64,000 nt of DNA, from the NCBI GenBank assembly GCA_043228905.1, contig JBHGNT010000009.1:22361380-22425379 (forward strand), given 5' to 3'. The notes under the pieces are model-generated. The model searched no databases. It was not told where the DNA came from and saw only the letters and a list, made by a program, of their open reading frames with translations. The stretch's first letter is position 1; every line of letters starts with the position of its first letter. Below, in pieces: positions 40,984 to 62,299 of this stretch. This DNA is from Azolla caroliniana. Taxonomy: Eukaryota > Plantae > Polypodiophyta. The position numbers were made by a program, and so were the translations under genes.

Positions 40984-43192
40984 CTATTTGAACTGATGGG
41001 TGTCGCCATACTTGGCGAGAAGGGATTCAAAAGCTTCCACTTGCCCTGGATCATACTCCCCTTTCGTATCGGGTTTCCACATGACAAGGAAAAGAGCGGC
41101 CGCCTTGTCATCCTCGTCCATGATCCGCATCATGTACGTCGGTATGTCACCAGTCATAGACTTGCCTTTTGCGAATCGGACGGATTTGATCTTCTTCAGG
41201 GCTAGGTGGAAATCTACATTCTCATCTTTATTCATGAGGTTCGCGTACTCGCCTCGCCCCGCGACTGTGTGGTAAAACAACTTCTCCAAGCTGGTGACAG
41301 ACTCTAGGATCCCGGCTCCAGTGTTCACGATGATCCTGATCTGCGATGAAAGCGAGTGGAAAAACAGGAGAAAAGAAAACGAAAATCATGCCTTTTGCTC
41401 TTCAGGGTGGTCGATTAACATTGTCACATTGATGTGAATGTATCCAATTTTGAGCACAAATACGTATACAGAAGGAGAGGAAGAGGAAGCGGTGCTCAAA
41501 CATAGATATACACACAGTCACATATGGATACACGTACGTACATATATGTATATACACACATGGGTACGTATATGCATATACACACATGGATACATATACG
41601 TATATACATATATGTGTATGTGTGTGCATACCCATAGCCATAGCCATAGATAGAGGAAGATCAAAGAGTTACACATACACATATAGTCATGGCCATAGAT
41701 AGAGGAAGATGAATGAGTTACACATATACATAGAGTTATAGCCATAGCCATAGATAGAAGAAGCTGAAAGAGTTATAAATACACATAGAGTTGCAACCAT
41801 GGCCATAGTCATATATAGAGGAAGCTTGTAACAATCGACAACGGTTCGAGAGTGTCAAAAGTGAGCCGTTAAAAAATTGTGAAACTTGAACCGAACCACG
41901 AAACCGATAAACCGAACCATTAAAAAAGAAAATCAAACCATTCAAACCATGATTTCAATTTTCAACTTCGTCAAAATTCAAAAATTCAAAAATTTAAAGA
42001 TTTTCCTAAAATGTGAGAATAAGGCTTGAAAATGAAAAATATTGTTTAAAAATACTTAAAAAAGAAGAAGAAACAATTAAACCGTGGTTTCTAATTGTTG
42101 AAACTGAACCGAACTGAATCGTTTAAACCGTTAAGTCACGGTTTTGAGGTTCGGTTCGGCTCAAACCGAACCGTTGCCGACTGTTAGAGGAAGGTGAAAG
42201 AGCTACACATACACATAGAGCTATAGCCATAGCCATAGCTTGAGGAAGATGAAAGAGTTACACATACACATAGAGCTGCAGCCATAGCCATAGCCATAGC
42301 CATAGATAGAGGAAGATGAAAGAAGTACAAATACACATGGAGCTGCAGCCATAGCCATAGCCATTGCCATAGCCATTGCCATAGCCATAGCTTGAGGAAG
42401 ATGAAAGAGTTACACATACACATAGAGCTGCAGCCATAGCCATAGCCATAGCCATAGATAGAGGAAGATGAAAGAAGTACAAATACACATGGAGCTGCAG
42501 CCATAGCCATAGCCATAGCCATAGCCATAGCTTGAGGAAGATGAAAGAGTTACACATATACATAGAGCTGCAGCCATAGCCATAGCCATAGATAGAGGAA
42601 GATGAAAGAAGTACAAATACACATGGAGCTGCAGCCATAGCCATAGCCATAGCCATAGATAGAGGAAGATGAAAGAGGTACAAATGCACATAGTGCTGCA
42701 GCCATAGCCATAGCCATAGATAGAGGAAGATGAAAGAGCTACAGATGCACAGATAGCCATGGCCATAGATAGAGGAAGATGAAAGAGCTACACATGCACA
42801 GACAACCATCACCATAGCCATGCACACCCACACACACACACACTTACCCGGCCGACACTCTTTGCTTCGTCTAAGAAGTCTTTGATGGGCTGCGTCTCAG
42901 AGCCTCCCTCTGCTTCGGCCGCATCAGGAGTGGCAAGGATCCGGAACCCTAATTTCCTATTGCAGACATTGAACCTCCCGTGAGCTGATAATGATGATGA
43001 AGAAAAAGAAGCAGAAGCAGCAGCCGCAGAAATCCTGTGGTTGGGATGCAAATGTGGCTGAACAGCACAGAAGAAGCGATCGCAGAGACTCGGCTTAGCA
43101 ATGCTGGATAATGGTCTGATGGACAGAGAAGAAGAAGAAGAAGAAGAAGAGGGGTGAAGAAGGAGAAGAGCAGAGGAAGAAAGGGCAGCCAT
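40984..43192 (-). CDS. Plastid-targeted ChuX/HutX-family (HemS/ChuX fold) putative heme-binding protein, 2 exons, 233 aa
   Basis: Exon 1 43192-42848 (Ser/Ala-rich transit peptide, then IKDFLDEAKSVGR) splices GT-AG in phase 0 to exon 2 41340-40984 (IRIIVNTGAGILESVTSLEKLFYH...GEYANLMNKDENVDFHL...VRF..G.S...IPTY.MRI.D...WKPDTKGEYDPGQVEAFESLLAKYG). This is collinear with the recalled cyanobacterial ChuX/HutX-like pattern LKxFLE..LGxLRLIVT..AVLE...EKLFY...YANMH..FEFHL...GEYEPGQVEAW..LKEKYG. Confidence 0.8.
41500..42830. repeat. Intronic compound tandem array: (GCCATA)n spacers with alternating ~65-80-bp units, plus (TA/CA)-rich tract
   Basis: Units gaggaagatgaaagagttacacatacacatagagctgca and gaggaagatgaaagaagtacaaatacacatggagctgca alternate; interrupted by MITE copy B. 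Confidence 0.9.
41829..42186 (-). mobile_element. hAT-like MITE copy B (inverted relative to copy A), inside the HutX-like intron
   Basis: Reverse complement matches 39384-39733 with a few substitutions and a short indel; no clean TSD. Confidence 0.88.
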
Positions 43193-43308
43193 GGCGTCTT
43201 CAGATCACACGAAACAAGAACAGAAAAAGTAGGGCGGGCTCTCTGCTTCTTATCTTTAAGCATGTACAGATATAAAAGCTACAAGTGGCTAGAAGAAAGC
43301 ATGCGGCA
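43193..43308. promoter_or_regulatory. Compact bidirectional promoter region (116 bp between divergent ATGs)
   Basis: ATG(-) at 43192 and ATG(+) at 43309; TATAAAA at 43271; GGGCGGG at ~43232. Confidence 0.7.
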
Positions 43309-43632
43309 ATGGCCTCCTCGTCGCAGCTTCTCTCTCGTCCATTTCCTGTACTTCCCTCTGATCATCGCCATCGCCATCGCTCAATCCCATATAGCTTCAA
43401 GATCCCTGTGTTTTCATCCAAATCCCCATCCCGTTTGCACAGGCGCAGATCCGTTAATCTCGCTGCATCTGTTCTAGGGTCAGGGAGCTTCCTGTGGGCT
43501 GCCATTGGTGCTGGAGGAGCTCTCGTGGCTGCAGCTATGGCAGCATCTATGTCTTCTTCTGCGACAGGGAAGACTAAAGCACAGCAAGCCTCCCTTTGTG
43601 TGAAACGAGGCATGGAGCTCTTTGTTCAGGTT

Positions 43633-43669
<37 letters not shown>

Positions 43670-45595
43670 ATATGCTCCTGCTCTTTTGCTTTTCATATGC
43701 CCTGTCTCATTTTTTGGTCAGTATATTCCATTTCTCCCGTGCTTAGCTTGTTCTGTCTCTTCTGTGTTTAGATTCTTAGTTTGTTCTGTGTCTTCTGTGT
43801 TTAGATTCTTAGTTTGTTCTGTGTTTTCTGTGTTTAGATCCTTAGTTTGTCCTGTGTCTTCTGTGTTTAGATTCTTTGGTTTGGCATGTGTTTGATATGC
43901 TCCATATTATACACAGAGACAGATAGACACAGAGAGATCGAGACCTAAACACTCATTCCCTCCCTGATTTCGCAAGATTATGTGCTCAATTTCTCTTCAT
44001 ATCTATGCCTTTTAATTGATTGTTAGGGAGATGTAGAAGGCTCGCTTGTGGAGTTCGACAGAGCACTAGAACTCGACCCTCGACAAAAGCCATGTCAGTG
44101 AGCTCATTGATACTCCATGTCATTACAATGAGCATATTTAAATTGTTCAATCAAGTATTTATTGGGAGACATGGTTCCATCTTCTCGCCTTTTTTCTCGC
44201 AGATCTTTGGCAGAGAGGCCTATCACTGTACTATGTGGATAGGTAAGGAATGAATTTCACGATCTCATCTGTTTCTTCTTTTAATTGTATTGATCTCCGT
44301 TTAATGCTCAGGTTTTTAGATGGAGCAGCACAATTCAGGGAAGATGTGGCGGTCAATCCAAATGACACTGAAGAGGCAATCTGGTCATTTCTGTGTGAAG
44401 CACGGATTCGAGGAGAAGATGAAGCTCGAAAGGACTTCTTGGAGGTAATGAATCTCTATTTCCTTTATTTTTTTTGTTTGTAGTTGATGTCATTCTATAA
44501 GCACAGAAGAGTCTTGATTCCACCTATAGGTGTGTTTTGCTTGAAAATGCCCACAAACACATACATAATGTATTGTTAATCGATCAAGCAAGTAGCATTA
44601 TTGGCAACTATGGTATATATTTCTTTGCTGTACTACTAGTCAGCATTGCTGCACATGGTCTGGCAAACTGCTAGGCAATAGGCATGATTGACATATGCCT
44701 TGTTTGTATGATAATTTACAACGGTAATCAGGCAATGTGACAGCACAAGTTTATGTACAATAGAAATCCGACATGTTTTGGAGCTTGAATTGTGGGTCCA
44801 GTTTTAATATGTATATAACGATCAGGATTCTTTATTTATTCTGTCTCTGAGTTTTGTAGAGATTATTTAGTCTCTGAGATTATGAAATAGAAGAATCTAA
44901 AATTTGACGGTGACTGGTTTGTAACAGTTTTTTATGTTGCAAAAATGCATACTCTGATAGATTCCCTTGTGATTCTCCCTTTAAGGTCGGATTGGATCGT
45001 CGTCCTGTCATGAGGAAAGCATATCAGCTATTCAAACACGGGGGCGATCCGAATGATGTAAGTATTTGAATCGAAAGCCATGTTCTACATTTGAAAGGTG
45101 TGTACTTTCCACAAATGGATAAATAGGTGTGGAAAATCTTTGGAACCAAAGCTGGTAAATGAATTCAAAGACGGAGAGCCGTATGAAATATTTTATGCAT
45201 ATCTTTATGCGGGTTTGTGCCATGAATGCCAGGTATATTATCTGTATCTTCTTATTTGTCGGTTATTTTAGTATCCCCACAAGATTATGGGGATTGTAAC
45301 AGATGATATTGATACTTGCAATTGCTGCAATGCAGGGAAATTCTGATGCTGCAAAAACTGCCATACTAGCTGCCACGGGCACTCCATATGGCTCAAGGTA
45401 TTGTAAATCATGAGCTCATGTGTTCCTGATAACGGTTAACTTGTTTGTGAGCTCATATGCTGCTAATAAAATGGTGCATTATGATTTCTTTCGAGAGTTA
45501 TTCGCTTGTCTTAATGGGAATCATCATGTAGGTCAAGTGATTATATGGCTATGCTTGCCAAAGTTCACTGCAAGTGCCGTAACTGGGATATTTGA
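43309..45595 (+). CDS. Plastid TPR-like superfamily protein (At3g05625-like), 8 exons
   Basis: Exons 43309-43629, 44027-44093, 44203-44242, 44312-44444, 44986-45057, 45152-45232, 45336-45397, 45532-45595. Protein ...KRGMELFVQGDVEGSLVEFDRALELDPRQKPYLWQRGLSLYYVDRF..GAAQFREDVAVNPNDTEEAIWSFLCEA...DYMAMLAKVHCKCRNWDI*. Confidence 0.88.
43745..43880. repeat. Intronic minisatellite ~33 bp x4
   Basis: tgttctgtgtcttctgtgtttagattcttagtt repeated. Confidence 0.85.
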
Positions 45596-50679: not shown

Positions 50680-53600
50680 TTTTTTAAAACCTTTTATTTA
50701 ATTATTGAGGGGGGGAACCCCAAATACCCTTAGGTGTTCTTTTTTTTGAAAGAAAGATACACCTTAGTATATTATGTACTTGAGAAATGGACAGATAGAA
50801 AACAGAAGGAGACATTTCATCTCACCTCTATAGTAATAGAAAGGCTAATACCAACATCTGATCAAACAAATGATATCATATAAGAAACAAGTGGAGTACA
50901 AACTACTGCAATATAAAAGAAGGTATGGCATAATTCCACCTCACACCAGAAGTTGTATCTGAAAATAAGTGAAGCCCTCACCATCGTTTCTTAAAGTCCA
51001 CTTGACGTTGCCATAGAACATCAGTTGAACCCTGCAGATCATGATATTGCCCACGTAGGGTATGGACAAATAATAACCAGAATTCAATAAGCATGGTGTT
51101 GAGATGTATGTGAGCATTATTAAAAATGACATCACATCTCACTTTCCATATTGTCCAAATAGCTAATGACGTAATAGTACGCCAAATAACCAAAATTTCA
51201 ATCCTAAACCGTAGAATAAAAGATGGAAATGAAGTGAGATAGAGGTACCCATGGGAAGGTGAAAGACATGAGAAGCATGCCTACTTTCATACTTCATAAC
51301 ATCTCCATGAAGGACACCCCATAATACTACACCCCACGAGAAAATAGAACGAAAATAATGGTGTCTCAGCAATAAAAGCAACTTACTCCAAAATTGCTTG
51401 ATCTTGGGACATAACCAAAACAAATGCAAAATAGATTCCCCAGATGCACCACAATGTATTCCACAACCATATTGCTGATTTTGCCTCAACCAATCACCAA
51501 CAGGAAGAGCATAATGCATCAACTGCCAACGAAAACAAATCACTTTTTTCGGCAATTGCATACTCCACAACCATTTCCAAAATTTTGTAAGTTGCAATGC
51601 ATGCACATTATTTGCAGTCCAATGCTTCATGGCAGCATGGCATTTATACTTTGATTGCAATAATAAATTTCTACCTAGCTTAGCCGAATATTGGAAAAAC
51701 TCCAAATGTTTACCATTTCCTCCAACACTTAGCTTTTTCCATTGATAATCAATTGAATCCCAATCCAAATTGTAAAGCGGTTTTTAAAAAAAAACCCACA
51801 ATGAACAACACCGTAAGAATTCTTGAAAGAGTGGATCCAAAAACCATTTTTTTCCAGATCTTGCAACTACTCGAATAACTAAAACATTGGCGGACATCCA
51901 CACTTCTGATGCAGAAAATACATGCCACATTAAAGTATATAACATCACCTACAATGTTAGTTACTTTGGCTCCTAAAATAACTTTTAAAGGAGAGAAATA
52001 ACCAAACCAGATTGCTAGAAGGGGACCATGAAGCCATAATTTGTCCCAATGCCTCTTGCATATCATTGCACATAATAACACTTCCTCGAACTGAAAGCAT
52101 CGACAAAAATTGTAACGGATGATTCATAACATAACATCCCCATGATAGAACATTACATGCTATTGATGCATCTAAAGAAGCCCAATTCAACCGAGGACGA
52201 CTACCAAGCAGAAAATCCCTTGTATCAGAGAAGAAAAAATTCCAGGTCAAAGGTTGTCTCAACAAGTCATCCGTTGTCGAAGGCATCTTCCGAACTAGAA
52301 ACTTTTTAACACCTGACCAACTTGCGAGAATTCCATTAAAAAACCTATCTTCTGATAAGGTTGTTTTAAACAAGTGAAAATTCTGAATAAAGGCCCATCT
52401 TAATGAGGGTTGCCACATTCCACCTATTGTTAGACACATAGTAGACAACCTATGCATCATCAACCGACTCCAAACACCTTGCATTGACAACATAACTCTA
52501 CACACAAATTTAGAAAGCAAAGCCTTACATTGTGCTTTTGGATCCACCAGCCCCAACCCACCATTTTGTTGCGGAGCAATCAAATTGATTGACCAAGCTA
52601 CTCTTGGCCTTTTATCTTGACTTGTTTTTCCTCCCCAAATGTAATTGCAAATGAGGCGTTGCACTTGCAAAATACATGATCTAGCAAACAATGTAGTAGA
52701 AACAATATACCAAATAGTAGCTAAAAGAACTTGGTTAGCTACAAGTACACAACCTGCAAATGATAGGTTAACTGAATCCCAAAGCAACAAATTTCTCCTT
52801 AACTTTACAAGTAGAAGAGCAACTAACATATCTGCAATAACATGAAGTCCCACTTGGCAACCCAAGTAATGAGTAGTGGTTCCATCATGAACCCACTTGA
52901 ATTCTTGCGAAGGCATCCAAGAAGGCAACGAATTTTGTGATACCCAAAAACCAAGAGATTTATGCCAATTTATCTTTGCTCTAGAGGCCAAACAGAATTC
53001 CTCCACTACTTCTTGCAATTTACTTAAATTTTCATCATTACCTTGAACATAAATTGCAGTATCATCTCAAATTCTGAATCCAATAGTTGTTGTTGCATTG
53101 CAGGCAAAGGCAAACCCTTCAGAGAAACTTGAGAAGAATTTAAATACATTGAGAATGTTTCCATTACTAGCAAAAACAGGAATGGGGCCAATGGACAACC
53201 TTGACGTACAGAACCGTAAATAGAGAATTTTCTAGTTTGCCCATCGGCTACCAAGACTGAACTAAAGGCCTCACGATACAACGAAGCTATAGCCCTAATC
53301 CATTGAACAGGAAAACCTAATCTCAAAAACGAACCTTCCATGAAATCCCAATCAATTGTGTCATATGCCTTTTCAAAATCTAATAAAAGTACCGCAAGAT
53401 CTTCTTTATTCTTCACTGCCATCCTTGTTAATTCCCAAAATAGAAAAACATTATAAAAAATATTACGTTCTTGCATAAATCCCATATGCAATTCATGCAC
53501 AATATCTGGAAGAAAGGATTGTAATCTCAACGCCAATAACTTAGCGTAAATGTTGTAAATTGTATTCAATAAAGTAATGGGCAACCAACCCTTCACCTCA

Positions 53601-53745
53601 TCCGTAACAACATCACCTTTCGGAATGAGGCATATCAATCCCGCTTTCCACTTTTGAGGCATAATACTAGATTGAACATTTCTTGAAATGCTGCAAGTAA
53701 ATCATCAACAATCAAATCCCAATATGTAATGAAAAAATATCTTCC
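50680..53745 (-). mobile_element. 5'-truncated L1-clade LINE (RT, zf-RVT, 3' end), frameshifted
   Basis: ORF pieces PITLLNTIY..., LLLDFEKAYDTIDW, SVRQGCPLAPFLF, YLGCQVG, GGLGLVD, CGASGESILHLFWLC, AIWTIWKVR; AATAAA and A-rich end near 50680-50700 on the minus strand. Confidence 0.9.
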
Positions 53746-55020: not shown

Positions 55021-58000
55021 TTATTGCGTAGTGTCTTCAGTACTCCCCCTCAAGCTTGGCAGGTCAGGGATCGTCAATCCGAGATCGGTCATGAATTGCC
55101 ACAACTTGTTGGCTCCTAAGGCTTTAATGAAGATGTCGACCGTTTGAAGATTGGTGCTAATGTGTTGTAGGTCGACATCGCCAGCTAGAATGCGCTCTCG
55201 GATGAAGTGATAGTGCACTTTGATGTGCTTTGTCCGCGCGTGGAACACCAGGTTCCGAGCCAGATAGATATTGCTCATGTTGTCGCAATAAAGGGAAGTA
55301 CGCCCAAATCCTTGAGTATCCTTTTGAGCCATACGGCTTCACATGCGGCCACTGCCGCGCTCTTGTATTCCGCCTCTGTGCTCGAAAGAGCGACGGTTGG
55401 TTGCTTTTGTTGCTCCAAGATATTGCTCCGCTGCCGAGGGAGAAAACAAATCCGGAGGTTGATCTTCTATCGGCTTTGTAGCCGGCCCAATCGACGTTTG
55501 TGTACCCCTCGAGTCGTATTGGCATCACGGTCTTGTAGAGGATGCTGCAATCCATTGTGCCGCTCACGTATCGTAGAACTCGCTTAGCGCAATCCAAGTG
55601 AGTATTACGCGATGTTTGCATGAATTGGCTAAGGAGACCGATCGGATAATTGAGATCGGGTCGTGTGATCGTGAGGTAGATGAGACTCCCGATACTGAGT
55701 CGGCTCAAGTCGTATTGGCATCTCAGTCTTGTAGAGGATGCCGCAATCCATTGTGCCACTCACATATCGTAGAACTCGCTTAGCGCAATCCAAGTGAGTA
55801 TTACACGGTGTTTGCATGAATTGGCTAAGGAGACTGATCGGATAATTGAGATCGGGTCGTGTGATCGTGAGGTAGATGAGACTCCCGATGAGTTGCTGAT
55901 ACTGAGTCGGCTCACACGCTTTGGTGACAAAGGTTGCATCTAGTTTGAGATTGCGATCGAGCGGGGTTGCTGCGGATTTGCACTCAACCATCCCGAACTT
56001 GTATAACAAGTTGAGGATGTAGTGCCGTTGAGAGATCATGATTCTGGCCGGAGTCCGAATTACCTCGATGTCGAGGAAGTAGTGGAGCTCCTTCATGTCC
56101 GTCATCTCGAACTTGTCGGAAAGGAGGGATTTGACCTTATTGATTTCGACGAGATGCTCACCTCCAATGACAAGGTCATCCACATATAGGATGATGACGA
56201 TTGGACTTGCGGAATCGCTTCGTATGTAGAGGGAGTTGTCCGATTTTGACATACGGAAGCCAATTTGATGAAGATATTGGGTTATCTTCGAATGCCAAGC
56301 ACACGGTGCTTGCTTGAGGCTGTAGAGTGGCTTCTTGAGTCAACATACATCTTTCGGATGGGTGCTCGAGTTGAAACCGGGTGGTTGTATCATGTACACC
56401 TCCTCTTCCAATTCGCCTTGTAGAAAGGCGTTCTTGACGTCCATTTGATGGAGGTGCCACCCTTTCGCCGTGGCAAGCGCAATTACGGTCCGTACCGTCG
56501 TCATCTTTGCCACCGGGGCAAAGGTCTCTTCGTAGTCAACTTCGTGCGTTTGGGCGTAGCCTTTCACTACGAGTCGCGCTTTGTAGCGGTTGACGGAACC
56601 GTCGGCGTTGTAGTTCACTTTGTAAATCCATCTGCATGCGATCGCCTTTTTGTGTGGTGAGGTGGGAACGAGATCCCACGTCTTGTTCTTGCGTAGTGCC
56701 TGCATCTCCTCGTTCATGGTTTCGATCCATCGCGTATCCTTGGTTGTTTCGGAAAATGTTTCCGACTCGCGTACTGTCGCCACCTTCATCATAAAGGCAT
56801 AGTGATATGCCATGTAGTTGTTGTAGCCGAATCGGCTGATCGGATTCTTTTCACAGGTGGAGCGACAGAGCTTTTCATTTGCAGAGATGAGGGCTTTCTT
56901 AGCTCCGATTGGTACATCAAAGCCGTTGAACTCACTATTGAGTGAGTGAGTCAACTCATCGTCGTTGAAGCGATCGTCTTCGTATTCCGCCATTTTCGCC
57001 TTGCCTTTGTCCATCTTCGGGCTAGGCCGCGATGTGCTTTGATTGCTCAAAGGCTCTTGTGGTCCGCTCAATCGGGTCGTGATCAGACTTTCTTCGAACA
57101 TGCACGTAAGGCGATCTTCATCCTCTATCTCTTGTTCGGCGGATTCCAGGTCAAGCGGAGTCAGAGTCGAAGTTGTCTTTGGTGCGTACCAGGATGCGGA
57201 CTCGTCAAAAACGACGTCTCGACTTACTCAAGATTTTTGAGTTGAGGGGTTGTAACACTTGTACCCCGTTTGCTCCAGTGAGTATCCTACCAGGGCAAAA
57301 ATTTGACGGGTGTAATGCCCGTCAAAGGCCATTTTGCCCGTCAAAAACATACATCTAATAAAAATGTCCGTCAAATGACATATAAAGTATAAAATTTTCC
57401 TTTTCATATGAAAGGCCACTAAAAATTATCCATGTCAAATGACATGCTAAAATTCTAATTTCCATGTCATATAATATATATATATATTATATGTAATAAC
57501 TAATAAGTTATAAGTTATAACTATGTGTGTAGTATGTAGTTACAACTTACTAAGTTACTAGTATAAAGTGTGTAATATACTAGGTCCTAGAATTAAGAGT
57601 CTAGTCTAATATATATTAATATGACAATATTATAACTTCTAAGTTTATATATATGTATTTAGTTACTAGTATATATATATATATATATATATATCTTATA
57701 TGTTTTTTAAAAACACACTTAAAATAAAAAATATAAATTGTAAGTTGTAAATTGTAATGATGAATCATGATTTATGATATAAATTCTCAAATCGATTTAA
57801 AATTTTAACAATAACATTAGTCATTTATTAAATACTCTAATATACTTTTTTTTTCGAAAAAAAAATACTTTAAATTCTAATATACTAGAGTGTAGAGTCT
57901 AGACTCTAGGTTTAATTTAAGTTTTAATTTAAAACTAAAAATTTTACTAACCATCTTTTTATACTTATAAGTTATTACATTTTACTATTATCTATGCTTT

Positions 58001-61000
58001 ATTAAAAAATTAAGGTTAATAATAACTTATTAGTACAGAACAAAGGTGAGTACTTCTATTAGGGTAGCAAGCTATTCTTCCACAGTCCACTTAAAAATTA
58101 TTGATTTTATATGTAGTTTTTCTGCAGCAACAATAGAAGAAGACACCCTTCAAGGCTAGGCTTAAGCTTCAACATTTTAAATAGGTAAGTTACCATCTAT
58201 TACATTATGTAATATTATACAATATAGTTTTTGTATTACTTAAGCAATAACTTGCCTGATTGTATTATATTGAAATGAAATACTTTTAATACACAAGTTT
58301 TAAGTTAAAATTAAAACTTTTAATAGTTACCATCCTTTTTATAGTTATTAAGTTATTACTAATAACTATCATCTATGCTTTATGAAGAAATTAAGGTTAG
58401 TAATAACTTATTAGTATAGAAAATAAGTGAGTAAGTACTTCTATTAGGGTAGCAAGCTATTGTTTCACTTAAAAATTATTGATTTCATATGTATTTCTAC
58501 AGCAACAATAGAAGAAGACATCCTTCAAGGCTAGGCTCAAGCTTCAACATTTCAAATAGGCAAGTTACCATCTATTACATTATGTAATATTATACAATAT
58601 AGTTTTTGTATTATTTAAACAATAACTTGGCTGTTTGTATTATATTGAAATGAAATAGTTTTAATACACAAGTTTTAAGTTAAAATTAAAACTTTTAATA
58701 GTTACCATTCTTTTTATAGTTATTAAGTTATTACTAATAACTATCATCTATGCTTTATGAAGAAATTAAGGTTAGTAATAACTTATTAGTATAGAAAATA
58801 AGTGAGTAAGTACTTCTATTAGGGTAGTAAGCTATTGTTCCACTTAAAAATTATTGATTTTATATGTAGTTGTTCTGCAGCAACAATAGAAGAAGACATC
58901 CTTCAAGGCTAGGCTCAAGCTTCAACATTTTAAATAGGTAAGTTACCATCTATCACATTATTTAATTTTATACAATATAGTTTTTGTATTACTTAATAAC
59001 TTGGTTGTTTGTATTTATTTTACGTATTTCATTATCTTTGTGAGGTAGTTATGTTCATTTGTGTACTTTCTATAGCAATAAAATATATAACAATGTAACA
59101 TTACATAGAGCTTTTCATGTCTAAAATCTGTATGTCAAATGACATGTTAAGTTTTTGCAATCTTCTGTCATATGACATACATCTTTAAAAAATGCCCGTC
59201 AAAAAACTTTAAGACTAACCCGTCAATTTTAGGCCCTGTATCCTACGAGGATACATTTCTCTGACTTCGGGTCAAGCTTTTGACACTTCTCGTTGGGGAT
59301 GTGCACATACGCTATCACGCCGAATATCCGGGTGTGCGATAAGTCCGGCTTCTTTCCAAAGTATTTTTCGTGCGGAGTGACCTCGTGCACCCCGGATGTT
59401 GTGCACCGGTTCATTAGGTAGACGACCGTATTTGCAGCTTCGGCCCAATATGACTTGGGCATATGCTTCTCATTCATCATGGCCCGTGCTACTTCGAGGA
59501 TGTGCCGATTTTTGCGCTCGGCTACTCCGTTTTGTTGCAGAGTGTGTCGACAAGTGAATTCTCGCCGAATTCCTTCCTTTCGGAGATACGTCGTGAAATC
59601 GTCCGAGAAGTACTCCTTGCCGATCTCCGATCGGAGACATCGTACATGTCGGCATGTGGCTTTCTCCACTTCATTCTTGAATTTTTGGAAGTGTCTGAAC
59701 ACTTCGATCTTTTGCCGCATCGGGTAGATCCAAGTGTGCCTAGAGAAGTCATCGATGAAGAGAACGTAATATCGGCATCCGTTGAATGTAGCCGTCTGTG
59801 CCGGTCCCCATACGTCGGAATGGACTACGTCGAGTAGACCTTTGCTCACGTTTCGCTCTTTCGGGAATGGGTGTCGGTGTTGCTTGCCGAATTGGCACGC
59901 TTCGCATACACCTTCAATCTCCTTCTCTTTGAATGTCGGAAGTCCGATGACGACTCCTTTCGATTTCATTGCTTTGAGTTTGTTGAGATTGAAGGAACGG
60001 AACATTGCCGATGTGCCGAATCGGGTGCATAGTGTCATCTCCTGTTTCGACATAACCGGGTCGCTCCGGCTCTCGAAGTTCGAGAAACCATTCTTTATGG
60101 GATGTCATATGGTTTGAGGCTCCGGAGTCAACAAACCATACGTCCTCCGGATTGAGGGCACTAGTTGAGGTAGAGGCCAACATAGAGTTTGCTCTATGTT
60201 TCATCATGAACATTCCGCCACGGTCGGAGTTGTGTGCATACATTCCGCCACGATCTTCGTAGTCGGAGTTGTGCCCGTACATTCCGCTATACTCTTCGTA
60301 GTCGGAATTGTGCACGTAATTCGTGAGTTGTCGGCTTGTGGAAGCTGATTCACGCATCTTCTTTCGACACTCTTCTTCGTGGTGACCGAGCTTTCCGCAA
60401 TATCCGCATTCGGTTGCGTTTTGACGGCTTGGGCCGGAGTGGAAGCTCCCCCTTCTTGCGAAGGTTCCTCATTGGCTTCCGTTTTGCGGCCGAAATTGGG
60501 AGTTGTTGTCGTAGGTTGGACCTCGTCCGCCTTGTCCTTGGCCAAATCGGCCTCTCGCTCGTCCGCGTCCTCTTCCTTCGTTCGAGAGCGTGTAGAGCAT
60601 GTGGCCTTCCGACTCATTGCTCCTTGTACGCACGTGGTTTTCTTCGACCAATAGCATTGATTGGAGCTCGAAAAAGGAGGGAGATTTCACCCTTGCTAGA
60701 ACGGCGGTTCGCATCGCGCCGAACCGTGGTGCAAGGCCGCTGAGGCATATTTGCACCATCTCATCATCATCGATACTTACGCTTATCGAGCCGAGCGAGT
60801 TACAAAGCTCCTTGATCTTCAAGGTGTATGTCGTGATGGACATGTCCCTTTGTTGAATGTTGTTCAACTCTTGGCGGAGTTGAAGCCTTCTTGCGGTTGT
60901 GTTCGCCGCAAAAATCTTTCGTAGATTTTCCCATGCCTCCTTCGGCGCCTTGGCTTTGCGAATGTAGCCGAGCATGTGATCATGAACACATGTCGCTAAG

Positions 61001-61200
61001 CAATACATCACGCAGCTTGCGGCTTGCTCCCATGTCGCGTATCCGGGAGCCGCTTCGACAGGTCGGTCTTCGTGCTCTCCTTTGATGTAGCTCCAATAGC
61101 CTTGTCCGACAAGGTATTGGTGCATCTTGTACTCCCAAGATGCGAAGTTGTTTCGATCCAACTTCTCGGTAGGGAGAGCGCTCCCCATTTGAGTATTCAT
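55021..61200 (-). pseudogene. copia gag-pol pseudogene
   Basis: gag (KLDRNNFASW, ARRLQLRQEL), in-frame TGA at 60469, zinc knuckle CGYCGKLGHHEEEC, protease WFVDSGASNHM, integrase VHSDVWGP...QQNGVAERKNR, RT YKARLV...QMDVKNAFL...LYVDD, RNase H YCDN...RTKHI. Disrupted by frameshifts, a deletion, a duplication and an insertion. Confidence 0.93.
57291..59238. mobile_element. 1948-bp non-autonomous hAT DNA transposon inserted in the copia integrase
   Basis: Perfect 8-bp TSD TATCCTAC (57283-57290, 59239-59246); TIRs CAGGGCAAAAATTTGACGGGT vs CAGGGCCTAAAATTGACGGGT (18/21); CCGTCAA subterminal motifs. Removal rejoins KCILVGY-SLEQTGYKCYNP. Confidence 0.93.
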
Positions 61201-62299
61201 TATGTCGATTCTTCTTCTTCTTCTTCTCTCTTCGAATGCAAGCTATGTAGCGAAGCTACAATATTGATGAGTCGGTTCTTTTTGAACGTCGGCGTTGTCG
61301 TGAAGATTTTCGGCAATAGTGTGAAAATCACATAAAACGTACAAAATCGAGTATGAATCATGTAATACAATAATTGTGAAGATAACATTTTTAATATCTA
61401 AGTACAAAATGATGGAGGTTTCGAATGCACTTTATTACACGAGAAATGGACAACTAAATGTCAAGATATGAGGGTATAAAGTTTGTGAAAAGAAAAGAGA
61501 AAATTGTGAGATATCCCACATAGGCACGACAAATACGGCTCTCATCATATATAAGGTGGAGCAAAAGATATTATCTTTGTGTCTATGTGTGGAGCATAGA
61601 GAGTTTAAGGTAACTTGAACTTAGAGTGGAGGTGGCTAGCTACTTGAAAAGGGTTTTGGCCAACCAAAACCGGATCGGCGATGGAGCCGGTGATCCGGCG
61701 GCATCCGGCGACGGCACCGGTATCCGGCGAATCGGCGACTAGATAAAATAAATATATAAAAATATATACATATTTACATATACAAGAAGGGCAAATATGG
61801 ATTCAAACCTTGCACCTCCAAGTTAGGAGTCAAATGGCTTACCATTAAGCCATAGTATTTAACTAAAATTATATTTCTATCATTGTACTTTTACATGTAA
61901 ATTCTCATCCATGAGTGCTAAAATGAGTGACATGGTTAGCATGCACCACATGTAATACTTAAGCGCCAAATGGCAAACATGCAATTTATGCATGTCTTGT
62001 ACCCTCACATGCATCATATGCATGAGAGCATCTATAAAAGAGGGAAGGGGGAGGAGAAAAACATGGTTTTTTTTATGAAAATTAAGAGGAAGAAATTCGT
62101 TTCCAAATCAATCATGTAATCTCAACTTCTCTCTTTCCCAATCTATCTTAAGTACTTTCTCGCCAAAGCTTGTATCGACTCTAAATCCTTCTGGTCCAGA
62201 ACCCCGGCGGTTCCGCCTCACGATCCGCGCGTAGTGACGGATCTTCACGACAACGTAGAGCTCAACACACGCGAATGGGCTAGATGGAGCTACCAAATC

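What the first reader, a model, noticed from the sequence alone, without database searches (positions are those of the whole stretch)
40984..43192. Nuclear-encoded, plastid-targeted cyanobacterial-type ChuX/HutX heme-handling protein hidden across a repeat-filled intron
Seen: two ORF-track fragments (42809-43192, 40984-41328) join through a clean phase-0 GT-AG intron into a 233-aa protein, with a Ser/Ala-rich transit peptide plus a ~135-aa domain. Knowledge: the domain follows motif by motif the small cyanobacterial ChuX/HutX-like proteins (EKLFY, YAN, FHL, GEY.PGQVEA, KYG). Bacterial ChuX/HutX are cytoplasmic heme-binding or carrier proteins of heme-utilisation systems. Inference: this may be an uncharacterised plastid heme chaperone or trafficking factor. 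I know of no characterised angiosperm counterpart, so it could be a non-seed-plant/algal component of endosymbiotic origin, or a transfer from a cyanobacterial symbiont. Exon 2 looks more GC3-rich than the neighbouring genes.
Basis: partly seen in the sequence, partly recalled or inferred. Interest (0 to 1): 0.8.

Follow-up and report, generated by a model that had tools for sequence, protein, structure and literature searches.

The report
Chloroplast heme-carrier candidate missing from angiosperms
This fern-type gene encodes an unstudied protein with the fold of bacterial heme carriers, shared with cyanobacteria, algae, mosses, ferns and conifers but not found in flowering plants, that is likely imported into chloroplasts and may bind and hand on heme there.

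Summary
The gene model is real: two minus-strand exons (43192-42848, 41340-40984) and a 1507-nt phase-0 GT-AG intron give a 233-aa protein with a transit-peptide-like N-terminus and a ChuX/HutX-fold domain. Its closest solved relative is Anabaena Ava_4353 (PDB 3FM2; E=2e-22; Z 20.3 for a fern ortholog model); HutX, ChuX and ChuS are distant. It is not a recent symbiont transfer: it nests in ferns, land plants and streptophytes, grouping with cyanobacteria is rejected (p=0.0015), and relatives occur in red, green and secondary-plastid algae. No named angiosperm hit appeared. It is not a HutX proper: it fails the NCBIfam cut-off, its cyanobacterial orthologs sit behind ffh-rpsP-khpA-phoH rather than in a heme-uptake operon, and the subfamily has two near-invariant arginines that ChuX/HutX lack. 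It keeps the His and Tyr that align with ChuX His98 and HutX Tyr90, but not ChuX His65. Best reading: a dispensable, ancient stromal heme/tetrapyrrole-binding protein. Heme binding, localisation and a junction-spanning read are not shown. No paper on it was found.

The parts
42848..43192 (-). Exon 1 coding part (aa 1-115): transit-peptide-like region plus first helix of the domain
   Evidence: RNA-type contigs over 42855-43117
42923..43192 (-). Predicted chloroplast transit peptide (about aa 1-90; cleavage site not computed)
   Evidence: composition; 62-139-aa extensions in 15 of 15 streptophyte orthologs; low pLDDT in the ortholog model; absent from cyanobacterial orthologs
41341..42847 (-). 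Phase-0 GT-AG intron, 1507 nt, at a position apparently shared with bryophytes
   Evidence: no contig cover 41410-42114
42187..42817 (.). Intronic satellite, 49-67-bp units with (AGCCAT)n; a second block lies at 41634-41808
41829..42186 (.). MITE-like insert in the intron, 20-nt terminal inverted repeats 90% complementary; 95% identical copy at 39385-39723
40984..41340 (-). Exon 2 coding part (aa 116-233 + stop): most of the ChuX/HutX-fold domain
41206..41208 (-). His160, near-invariant (109 of 110), aligns with E. coli ChuX His98; candidate heme ligand
41245..41247 (-). Tyr147 (75 of 110), aligns with ChuX Tyr86 and V. cholerae HutX Tyr90
41335..41337 (-). Arg117, near-invariant (109 of 110); Thr in ChuX and HutX
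41302..41304 (-). Glu128, near-invariant (109 of 110), shared with ChuX/HutX/HemS
41125..41127 (-). Arg187 (101 of 110); hydrophobic in ChuX and HutX
40629..40983 (-). Probable 3' UTR
   Evidence: contigs of runs X1, X2, X15 reach 40629-40639
43193..43308 (.). 116-bp gap to a divergent gene (ATG 43309, + strand); likely shared promoter region

Best explanation
A two-exon nuclear gene encodes a small ChuX/HutX-fold protein, inherited vertically and likely from the cyanobacterial ancestor of the plastid, that is predicted to be imported into the chloroplast stroma, where it likely binds free heme and would buffer it or pass it on to heme-using or heme-degrading enzymes. Shown: gene structure, fold, family range, place in the tree, conserved residues, cyanobacterial gene context. 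Inferred: import and transit-peptide cleavage near aa 90; heme held by His160 with or without Tyr147, with Arg117/Arg187 holding the propionates; hand-over to partners such as plastid heme oxygenase (by analogy with HutX to HutZ). Because phototrophs make their own heme in this compartment and the cyanobacterial gene has no uptake genes beside it, the role would be housekeeping of home-made heme, not scavenging of foreign heme. It is dispensable: about half of phycobilisome-bearing cyanobacteria lack it and it was not found in angiosperms.
For: Fold: exon-2 model hits 3FM2 (E 1.8e-10), then ChuX and HutX entries; a high-confidence model of a fern ortholog 83% identical in exon 2 gives Z 20.3 (3FM2), 12.6 (HutX), 12.3 (3NA2), 12.1 (2PH0), 10.6 (ChuS), next 5.1. 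Sequence profile of 42 members finds HutX 5EXV at E 8e-8; 21 of 21 plant/algal members match PF06228, Adiantum above the cut-off (36.1 vs 25). His160 = ChuX His98 and Tyr147 = HutX Tyr90 by alignment (that these are the heme ligands is recalled, not read). ChuX, ChuS and HutX bind heme 1:1 and HutX passes it to HutZ/HutW (passages of PMC10404700, PMC6775658, PMC12670364). Plastid link: close homologs in 63 of 129 phycobilisome-linker-positive genomes and 0 of the other 172 in the phylum sample; named eukaryote hits are plants and algae apart from one probable prey transcript; acid-poor N-terminal extensions in 12 of 12 streptophyte proteins counted (0-3 D/E in 60 aa); an algal member starts with a signal peptide plus ASAF-type motif (P0060; motif recalled). 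Tree follows the species tree.
Against: No binding, localisation or partner data. Far below the HutX equivalog cut-off (22.6-34.5 vs 110 bits; ChuX control 209.8), about 20% identical to HutX. ChuX His65 is replaced by Asn121. Tyr147 is Trp or Phe in 5 of 26 green members and Tyr in only 20 of 48 clade-II members, so it is not a required ligand. No radical-SAM, oxygenase or TonB partner among the recurrent cyanobacterial neighbours identified. The nearest structure, 3FM2, is itself only 'putative heme-binding'. The two invariant arginines may point to another ligand or to catalysis. No junction-spanning contig was listed.
Confidence: 0.5

Rival explanations
1. It acts on a different tetrapyrrole (protoporphyrin, Mg-porphyrin/protochlorophyllide or a bilin), or is an enzyme of the ChuS/HemS type that opens or demetallates heme, with Arg117, Glu128, His160 and Arg187 as the active site.
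For: Four polar residues are near-invariant over cyanobacteria and all algal clades although overall identity is low; two of them are specific to this subfamily. The fold is shared with ChuS (Z 10.6), a reported heme degrader (passage of PMC12670364). Loss in angiosperms parallels the loss of dark protochlorophyllide reductase and flavodiiron proteins (recalled).
Against: No bilin, chlorophyll or heme enzyme among the recurrent neighbours identified. Only 63 of 129 phycobilisome-bearing genomes carry it, whereas dark protochlorophyllide reductase is general in cyanobacteria (recalled). Single-domain members of the fold are described as carriers.
Confidence: 0.27
2. The fold has been re-used and the protein binds no tetrapyrrole; it works with the RNA/ribosome genes it follows in cyanobacteria (ffh, rpsP, khpA, phoH) or binds another anionic ligand.
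For: phoH lies nearby in 78 of 80, 25 of 30 and 11 of 20 cyanobacterial loci, same strand and usually directly upstream; invariant arginines could bind phosphate; weak PH-like fold matches at Z 4-5.
Against: The neighbour varies in other lineages (transaldolase/epimerase, cysteine-synthase-like and others); the gene is cleanly missing between phoH and DUF6816 in 2 of 18 loci checked, so the cluster works without it; the His aligned with ChuX His98 is kept in 109 of 110.
Confidence: 0.18
3. The gene is a recent horizontal transfer from a Nostoc-type symbiont into this fern.
For: About 39% identity to Nostocales proteins; GC3 differs from the neighbours.
Against: 80-83% identity to other ferns; nested in ferns 100/99, land plants 100/98, streptophytes 97/91; grouping with 11 cyanobacteria rejected, p-AU 0.0015; intron position apparently shared with bryophytes; Nostocales orthologs have GC3s 0.28 against 0.63 here.
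Confidence: 0.02
4. The two pieces are not spliced as proposed, or the gene is a silent relic.
For: No joint listed; some contigs run from exon 1 into the intron (42763-42877); the intron is swollen with repeats.
Against: Intact frame, canonical sites, orthologs contiguous across the point, both exons covered by contigs in 4 runs, of which at least 2 show a neighbouring intron spliced out.
Confidence: 0.03

Closest known systems
Anabaena variabilis Ava_4353 (PDB 3FM2), 'putative heme-binding protein'; NCBI label 'ChuX/HutX family heme-like substrate-binding protein'
   Same: Orthologous subfamily: E 2e-22 for exon 2, Z 20.3, rmsd 1.6 over 127 residues for the fern ortholog model; same short form and same Arg/Glu/Tyr/His/Arg set.
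   Different: Plant protein adds a ~90-aa transit-peptide-like leader and an intron. No functional study of Ava_4353 was found.
Vibrio cholerae HutX (5EXV) and E. coli O157:H7 ChuX (2OVI, 6U9J); TIGR04108
   Same: Fold (Z 12.6 to HutX), conserved Glu, the His matching ChuX His98 and the Tyr matching HutX Tyr90.
   Different: About 20% identity; far below the equivalog cut-off; His65 not kept; two new near-invariant Arg; no chuW/hutW/hutZ operon; likely serves home-made heme.
HemS/ChuS/PhuS (PF05171)
   Same: One repeat of the same fold (Z 10.6 to ChuS; 7 of 21 members match PF05171).
   Different: Single domain, not the fused two-repeat protein.
Leptospirillum 3NA2 / LFE_1968-like (PF22684) and DUF7676 clusters
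   Same: Same fold, uncharacterised (Z 12.3; Atlas neighbours).
   Different: 15% identity.
Plant heme-binding proteins SOUL4/SOUL5 and TSPO
   Same: Proposed role as carriers or buffers of free heme in or around plastids (passages of PMC7006542).
   Different: Other families (no Pfam match to them); described from Arabidopsis, an angiosperm, where this gene was not found.

Membership tests
Pfam ChuX_HutX (PF06228) | Score above gathering cut-off 25 bits | tested here: inconclusive
   Exon 2 alone, lacking the first ~17 domain residues: 17.7 bits, E 0.0033. Whole Adiantum ortholog 36.1 bits; 21 of 21 members match at E<=0.1. The whole window protein was not scanned against Pfam.
ChuX/HutX/HemS fold | Structural match standing clear of unrelated folds | tested here: met
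   Top Foldseek hits of the exon-2 model are 3FM2, ChuX, HutX; Z 20.3-10.6 for five family members, then 5.1 (fern ortholog model).
HutX equivalog (TIGR04108) | Score above 110 bits | tested here: not met
   22.6 (exon 2), 31.4 (fern ortholog), 34.5 (Taxus), 22.5 (cyanobacterial); E. coli ChuX 209.8.
HutX/ChuX heme-utilisation system | Gene in an operon with radical-SAM ChuW/HutW and HutZ/ChuY or uptake genes | tested here: not met
   Recurrent neighbours identified in 130 cyanobacterial loci are ffh, rpsP, khpA, phoH, DUF6816, an ABC transporter, a BMC protein and others; not every ORF was scanned. Control: E. coli chuX lies in the chu cluster.
ChuX | His98-equivalent (ligand role recalled) | tested here: met
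   His160, 109 of 110 members.
ChuX | His65-equivalent (ligand role recalled) | tested here: not met
   Asn121 here, Thr in the cyanobacterial sequences shown.
HutX | Tyr90-equivalent (ligand role recalled) | tested here: met
   Tyr147 aligns with chain residue 112 of 5EXV = entry residue 90 (offset 22); kept in only 75 of 110 members.
HutX/ChuX | 1:1 heme binding and transfer to a degrading enzyme | not testable with these tools
   Needs titration and transfer assays.
Ava_4353-type phototroph subfamily | Best sequence and structure match, shared Arg-Glu-His-Arg set, single short domain | tested here: met
Nuclear-encoded plastid proteins of endosymbiotic origin | Transit peptide; cyanobacterial closest prokaryotic relatives; presence in red and green lineages; vertical tree | tested here: inconclusive
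   Range and tree fit; targeting judged from composition only; tree unrooted and no named glaucophyte or Gloeomargarita member seen.

The most novel reading that the evidence does not exclude
An overlooked, ancient part of the plastid tetrapyrrole pathway: a dedicated stromal heme chaperone, or a tetrapyrrole enzyme with its own Arg-Glu-His-Arg site, kept in two paralogous clades across red, green and secondary plastids and in non-flowering land plants, and lost at the base of angiosperms along with other low-oxygen or low-light plastid functions such as dark protochlorophyllide reductase and flavodiiron proteins. It would have been missed because plant heme biology is done in Arabidopsis.
Probability: 0.3. 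Interest if true: 0.75.

Novelty: new variant of a known kind. Interest (0 to 1): 0.5.

Why it matters
How heme is held and moved after it is made in plastids is described as unresolved (passage of PMC7006542). This gives a small, soluble, single-copy candidate with a solved cyanobacterial structure, clear residues to mutate, and knock-out-friendly hosts (Marchantia, mosses, Ceratopteris, Nostoc/Anabaena). Its apparent loss in angiosperms would explain why it is unstudied and adds to the list of plastid functions dropped by flowering plants. The score is held down because the gene is widespread, already carries an automatic Pfam label in databases, is dispensable in many cyanobacteria, and its function is inferred.

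Tried and rejected
Homodimer job on the fern ortholog domain with heme riding along: verdict 'no answer' (0.90, but a control reached 0.74); not used either way. Direct splice evidence: no joint listed in 8 runs laid; the 4 small-share runs gave only repeats or short pieces. Own-genome search: no genome held, so copy number and paralogs in this genome are untested. Genome scan with the plant profile found nothing because its patterns were plant-specific; repeated with a cyanobacterial query. Plasmids: no match. Co-occurrence with the frequent neighbour DUF6816: 110 of 301 genomes against 63 of 301, no matching profile. Check for false negatives: 0 of 10 negative genomes matched on re-search and 0 of 18 DUF6816 regions held the gene, with 2 of 2 positive controls found. 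High GC3 as a sign of transfer: rejected; its cause is unexplained. The mixture-model careful tree of 111 rows did not finish; the quick tree is reported, and the careful tree used 42 of those 111 rows, picked by me, under LG+G4, without ChuX, Pycnococcus and other long branches. ChuX as outgroup was a long branch (3.96) and cannot root the family. Literature: searches listed no study of this subfamily (one search listed 20 of 154 mostly false matches; 30 of 215; 12 of 28; 20 of 21); the primary ChuX, HutX and HutW papers were not held; supplements (proteome or gene-family tables) were not searched and may list the gene. Earlier scan findings: none. Second Atlas search not possible.

Full report
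Observation. On the minus strand an ATG at 43192 opens 115 codons to 42848, followed by a 1507-nt intron (GTAAGT...CGCAG, phase 0) and 118 codons plus stop from 41340 to 40984, 233 aa in all. The first 60 residues hold 17 Ser/Thr, 9 Ala, 4 Arg/Lys and 1 acidic residue, as chloroplast transit peptides do (general knowledge; no targeting predictor was available). Fifteen of 15 full-length streptophyte orthologs examined are contiguous across the proposed junction. Eight of 11 short gene calls start with an intron-like stretch ending in Gln just before the same residue, and the other three match only the first 18 domain residues, so the intron position appears to be shared with bryophytes. Contigs of four runs (three guessed to be RNA, one unlabelled) cover both exons and a probable 3' UTR to about 40630 and leave 41410-42114 bare; two of them splice out the neighbouring gene's intron. 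The tool listed no joint for this gene. One contig (X1 record 3) is laid to 41341 with 29 letters left over, the length expected if it ran on into exon 1 up to 42877, where an intron-retaining contig (record 5) ends; this fits the spliced form but is my inference. Four small-share runs added nothing.

What the domain is. Exon 2 alone matches Pfam ChuX_HutX weakly (17.7 bits, cut-off 25), TIGR04108 HutX at 22.6 bits (cut-off 110), and PDB 3FM2, Anabaena Ava_4353, at E 2e-22. Whole orthologs do better: 21 of 21 match PF06228, Adiantum at 36.1 bits. A profile of 42 members reaches V. cholerae HutX at E 8e-8 and HemS/ChuS weakly. The exon-2 model (mean pLDDT 69) hits 3FM2, ChuX and HutX first. A model of a fern ortholog 83% identical in exon 2 (domain pLDDT 95-98) gives Z 20.3 to 3FM2, 12.6 HutX, 12.3 3NA2, 12.1 2PH0, 10.6 ChuS, then 5.1. 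The Atlas's nearest clusters carry ChuX_HutX and LFE_1968-like families.

Range. Word-based searches gave 25 of 29, 20 of 186 and 42 of 7994 candidates (the last truncated); the exhaustive profile search gave 128 representatives, of which 30 proteins in all were looked up for names. Named members: Adiantum, Ceratopteris, Cryptomeria, Taxus, Marchantia, Riccia, Calypogeia, Ceratodon, Sphagnum, Closterium, Chlorokybus, Mesostigma, Pycnococcus, Tetraselmis, Rhodosorus, Galdieria, Porphyra, Pyropia, Vaucheria, marine-algal transcripts and cyanobacteria. None is an angiosperm. Of 215 other stored proteins only three have a gymnosperm as best match among 19 named references: one at 83% (gymnosperm-like), one 35-aa piece and one at 32%. 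Since NCBI and UniRef are among the sources, absence from angiosperms is likely but was not tested on genomes, and 50% clustering could hide members. In Cyanobacteriota the gene was found once each in 63 of 301 genomes (one partial), all among the 129 with phycobilisome linkers and none among the other 172. Spot checks support the absences (0 of 10 genomes, 0 of 18 loci), and in two loci phoH directly abuts DUF6816 with the gene gone.

Origin. In the 111-row quick tree and a 42-row careful tree the window protein sits with ferns (100/99), in land plants (100/98) and streptophytes (97/91); forcing it with 11 cyanobacteria is rejected (p-AU 0.0015). The window is thus likely a fern genome and the gene was inherited vertically. 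Eukaryotes form two groups, one with streptophytes, prasinophyte-like sequences and some red algae, another with Porphyra, Tetraselmis, Vaucheria and many secondary-plastid sequences; the tree is unrooted, so ancient duplication versus two acquisitions is open. Endosymbiotic origin is the simplest reading. GC3s of the domain is 0.63 (86/136) against 0.31-0.42 in seven neighbouring stretches and 0.40 in the leader, but 62 Nostocales orthologs average 0.28, so this is no trace of a Nostoc donor.

Clues to function. Among 110 family domains Arg117, Glu128 and His160 are kept in 109, Arg187 in 101, Tyr147 in 75 (19 of 19 cyanobacteria, 14 of 14 red clade I, 21 of 26 green clade I, 20 of 48 clade II). 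His160 aligns with E. coli ChuX His98, Tyr147 with ChuX Tyr86 and HutX Tyr90, and Asn121 with ChuX His65. That His65/His98 and Tyr90 are the proposed heme ligands is recalled; the primary papers were not held. The two arginines are Thr and a hydrophobic residue in ChuX/HutX. Passages read state that ChuX, ChuS and HutX share a fold and bind ferric heme 1:1 (PMC10404700), that HutX passes heme to HutZ and HutW and ChuS can degrade heme (PMC12670364; PMC6775658). Cyanobacterial context differs from those operons: phoH is nearby in 78 of 80, 25 of 30 and 11 of 20 loci and DUF6816 in 50, 20 and 11, typically as ffh-rpsP-khpA-phoH-gene, with other neighbours in small genomes (transaldolase, epimerase, IscA/HesB). 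No radical-SAM, oxygenase or uptake gene was among the neighbours identified; not every ORF was scanned.

Mechanism. Most likely (0.5) the protein is imported into the stroma, trimmed to a ~140-aa domain, and binds home-made heme through His160 (with Tyr147 where present), the arginines holding the propionates, to buffer it or hand it to enzymes such as heme oxygenase. Next (0.27) it acts on another tetrapyrrole or is catalytic; then (0.18) the fold is re-used for a non-tetrapyrrole ligand. Some tetrapyrrole link is therefore about 0.75. Recent transfer (0.02) and mis-splicing or pseudogene (0.03) are unlikely.

Comparison and novelty. It works, probably, like HutX/ChuX but is not a member of the HutX equivalog or of a heme-utilisation system; it belongs to the Ava_4353 phototroph subfamily. 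Databases label members 'hypothetical' or by Pfam. Ten paper searches (listings only, except the passages cited) showed no study of the cyanobacterial or plant protein; subscription papers and supplements are not covered. Heme trafficking from chloroplasts is called unresolved in PMC7006542 (passages). Verdict: real, ordinary in origin, unstudied, a new variant of a known fold family with a notable apparent loss in flowering plants; interest 0.5.

Noticed in passing
window 43309-44450 and beyond, + strand: Divergent gene starting 116 bp away, with a transit-peptide-like N-terminus and a TPR-like continuation (resemblance recalled; no family hit on two short exons). Contigs splice about 43629 to 44027, and three start at 43168-43178, inside the start of the ChuX-like ORF, so the 5' ends may overlap or the contigs merge two transcripts.
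   Followed up: partly
window 41829-42186 and 39385-39723: MITE-like element with 20-nt terminal inverted repeats flanked by TA, two copies 95% identical in opposite orientation.
   Followed up: partly
window 40017-40090, - strand: tRNA-Lys (anticodon TTT) about 900 bp downstream of the gene.
   Followed up: no
window about 29167-33598, - strand: SBP-box (SPL) transcription-factor gene (Pfam SBP, E 5e-14).
   Followed up: no
window about 50978-53701 and 55021-61242, - strand: Broken ORFs that look like a LINE reverse transcriptase and a copia-type LTR retrotransposon, judged by eye and not scanned.
   Followed up: no
P0046: A member labelled Leptophrys vorax (an alga-eating amoeba, recalled) is 87% identical to Closterium proteins: probably a prey transcript, not a non-phototroph homolog.
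   Followed up: partly
P0073, P0074, P0097, P0185, P0196 and relatives: A second, more divergent eukaryotic clade (48 rows; red algae, Tetraselmis, Vaucheria, secondary-plastid algae) keeps Arg/Glu/His but often not the Tyr; no land-plant member was seen.
   Followed up: partly
L134 and L140: phoH directly followed by DUF6816 with the ChuX-like gene cleanly absent, showing gene loss within a conserved cyanobacterial cluster.
   Followed up: yes
window 40987-41340 and 42848-42922: Domain-coding part has GC3s about twice that of neighbouring genes while the leader does not; cause unexplained.
   Followed up: partly
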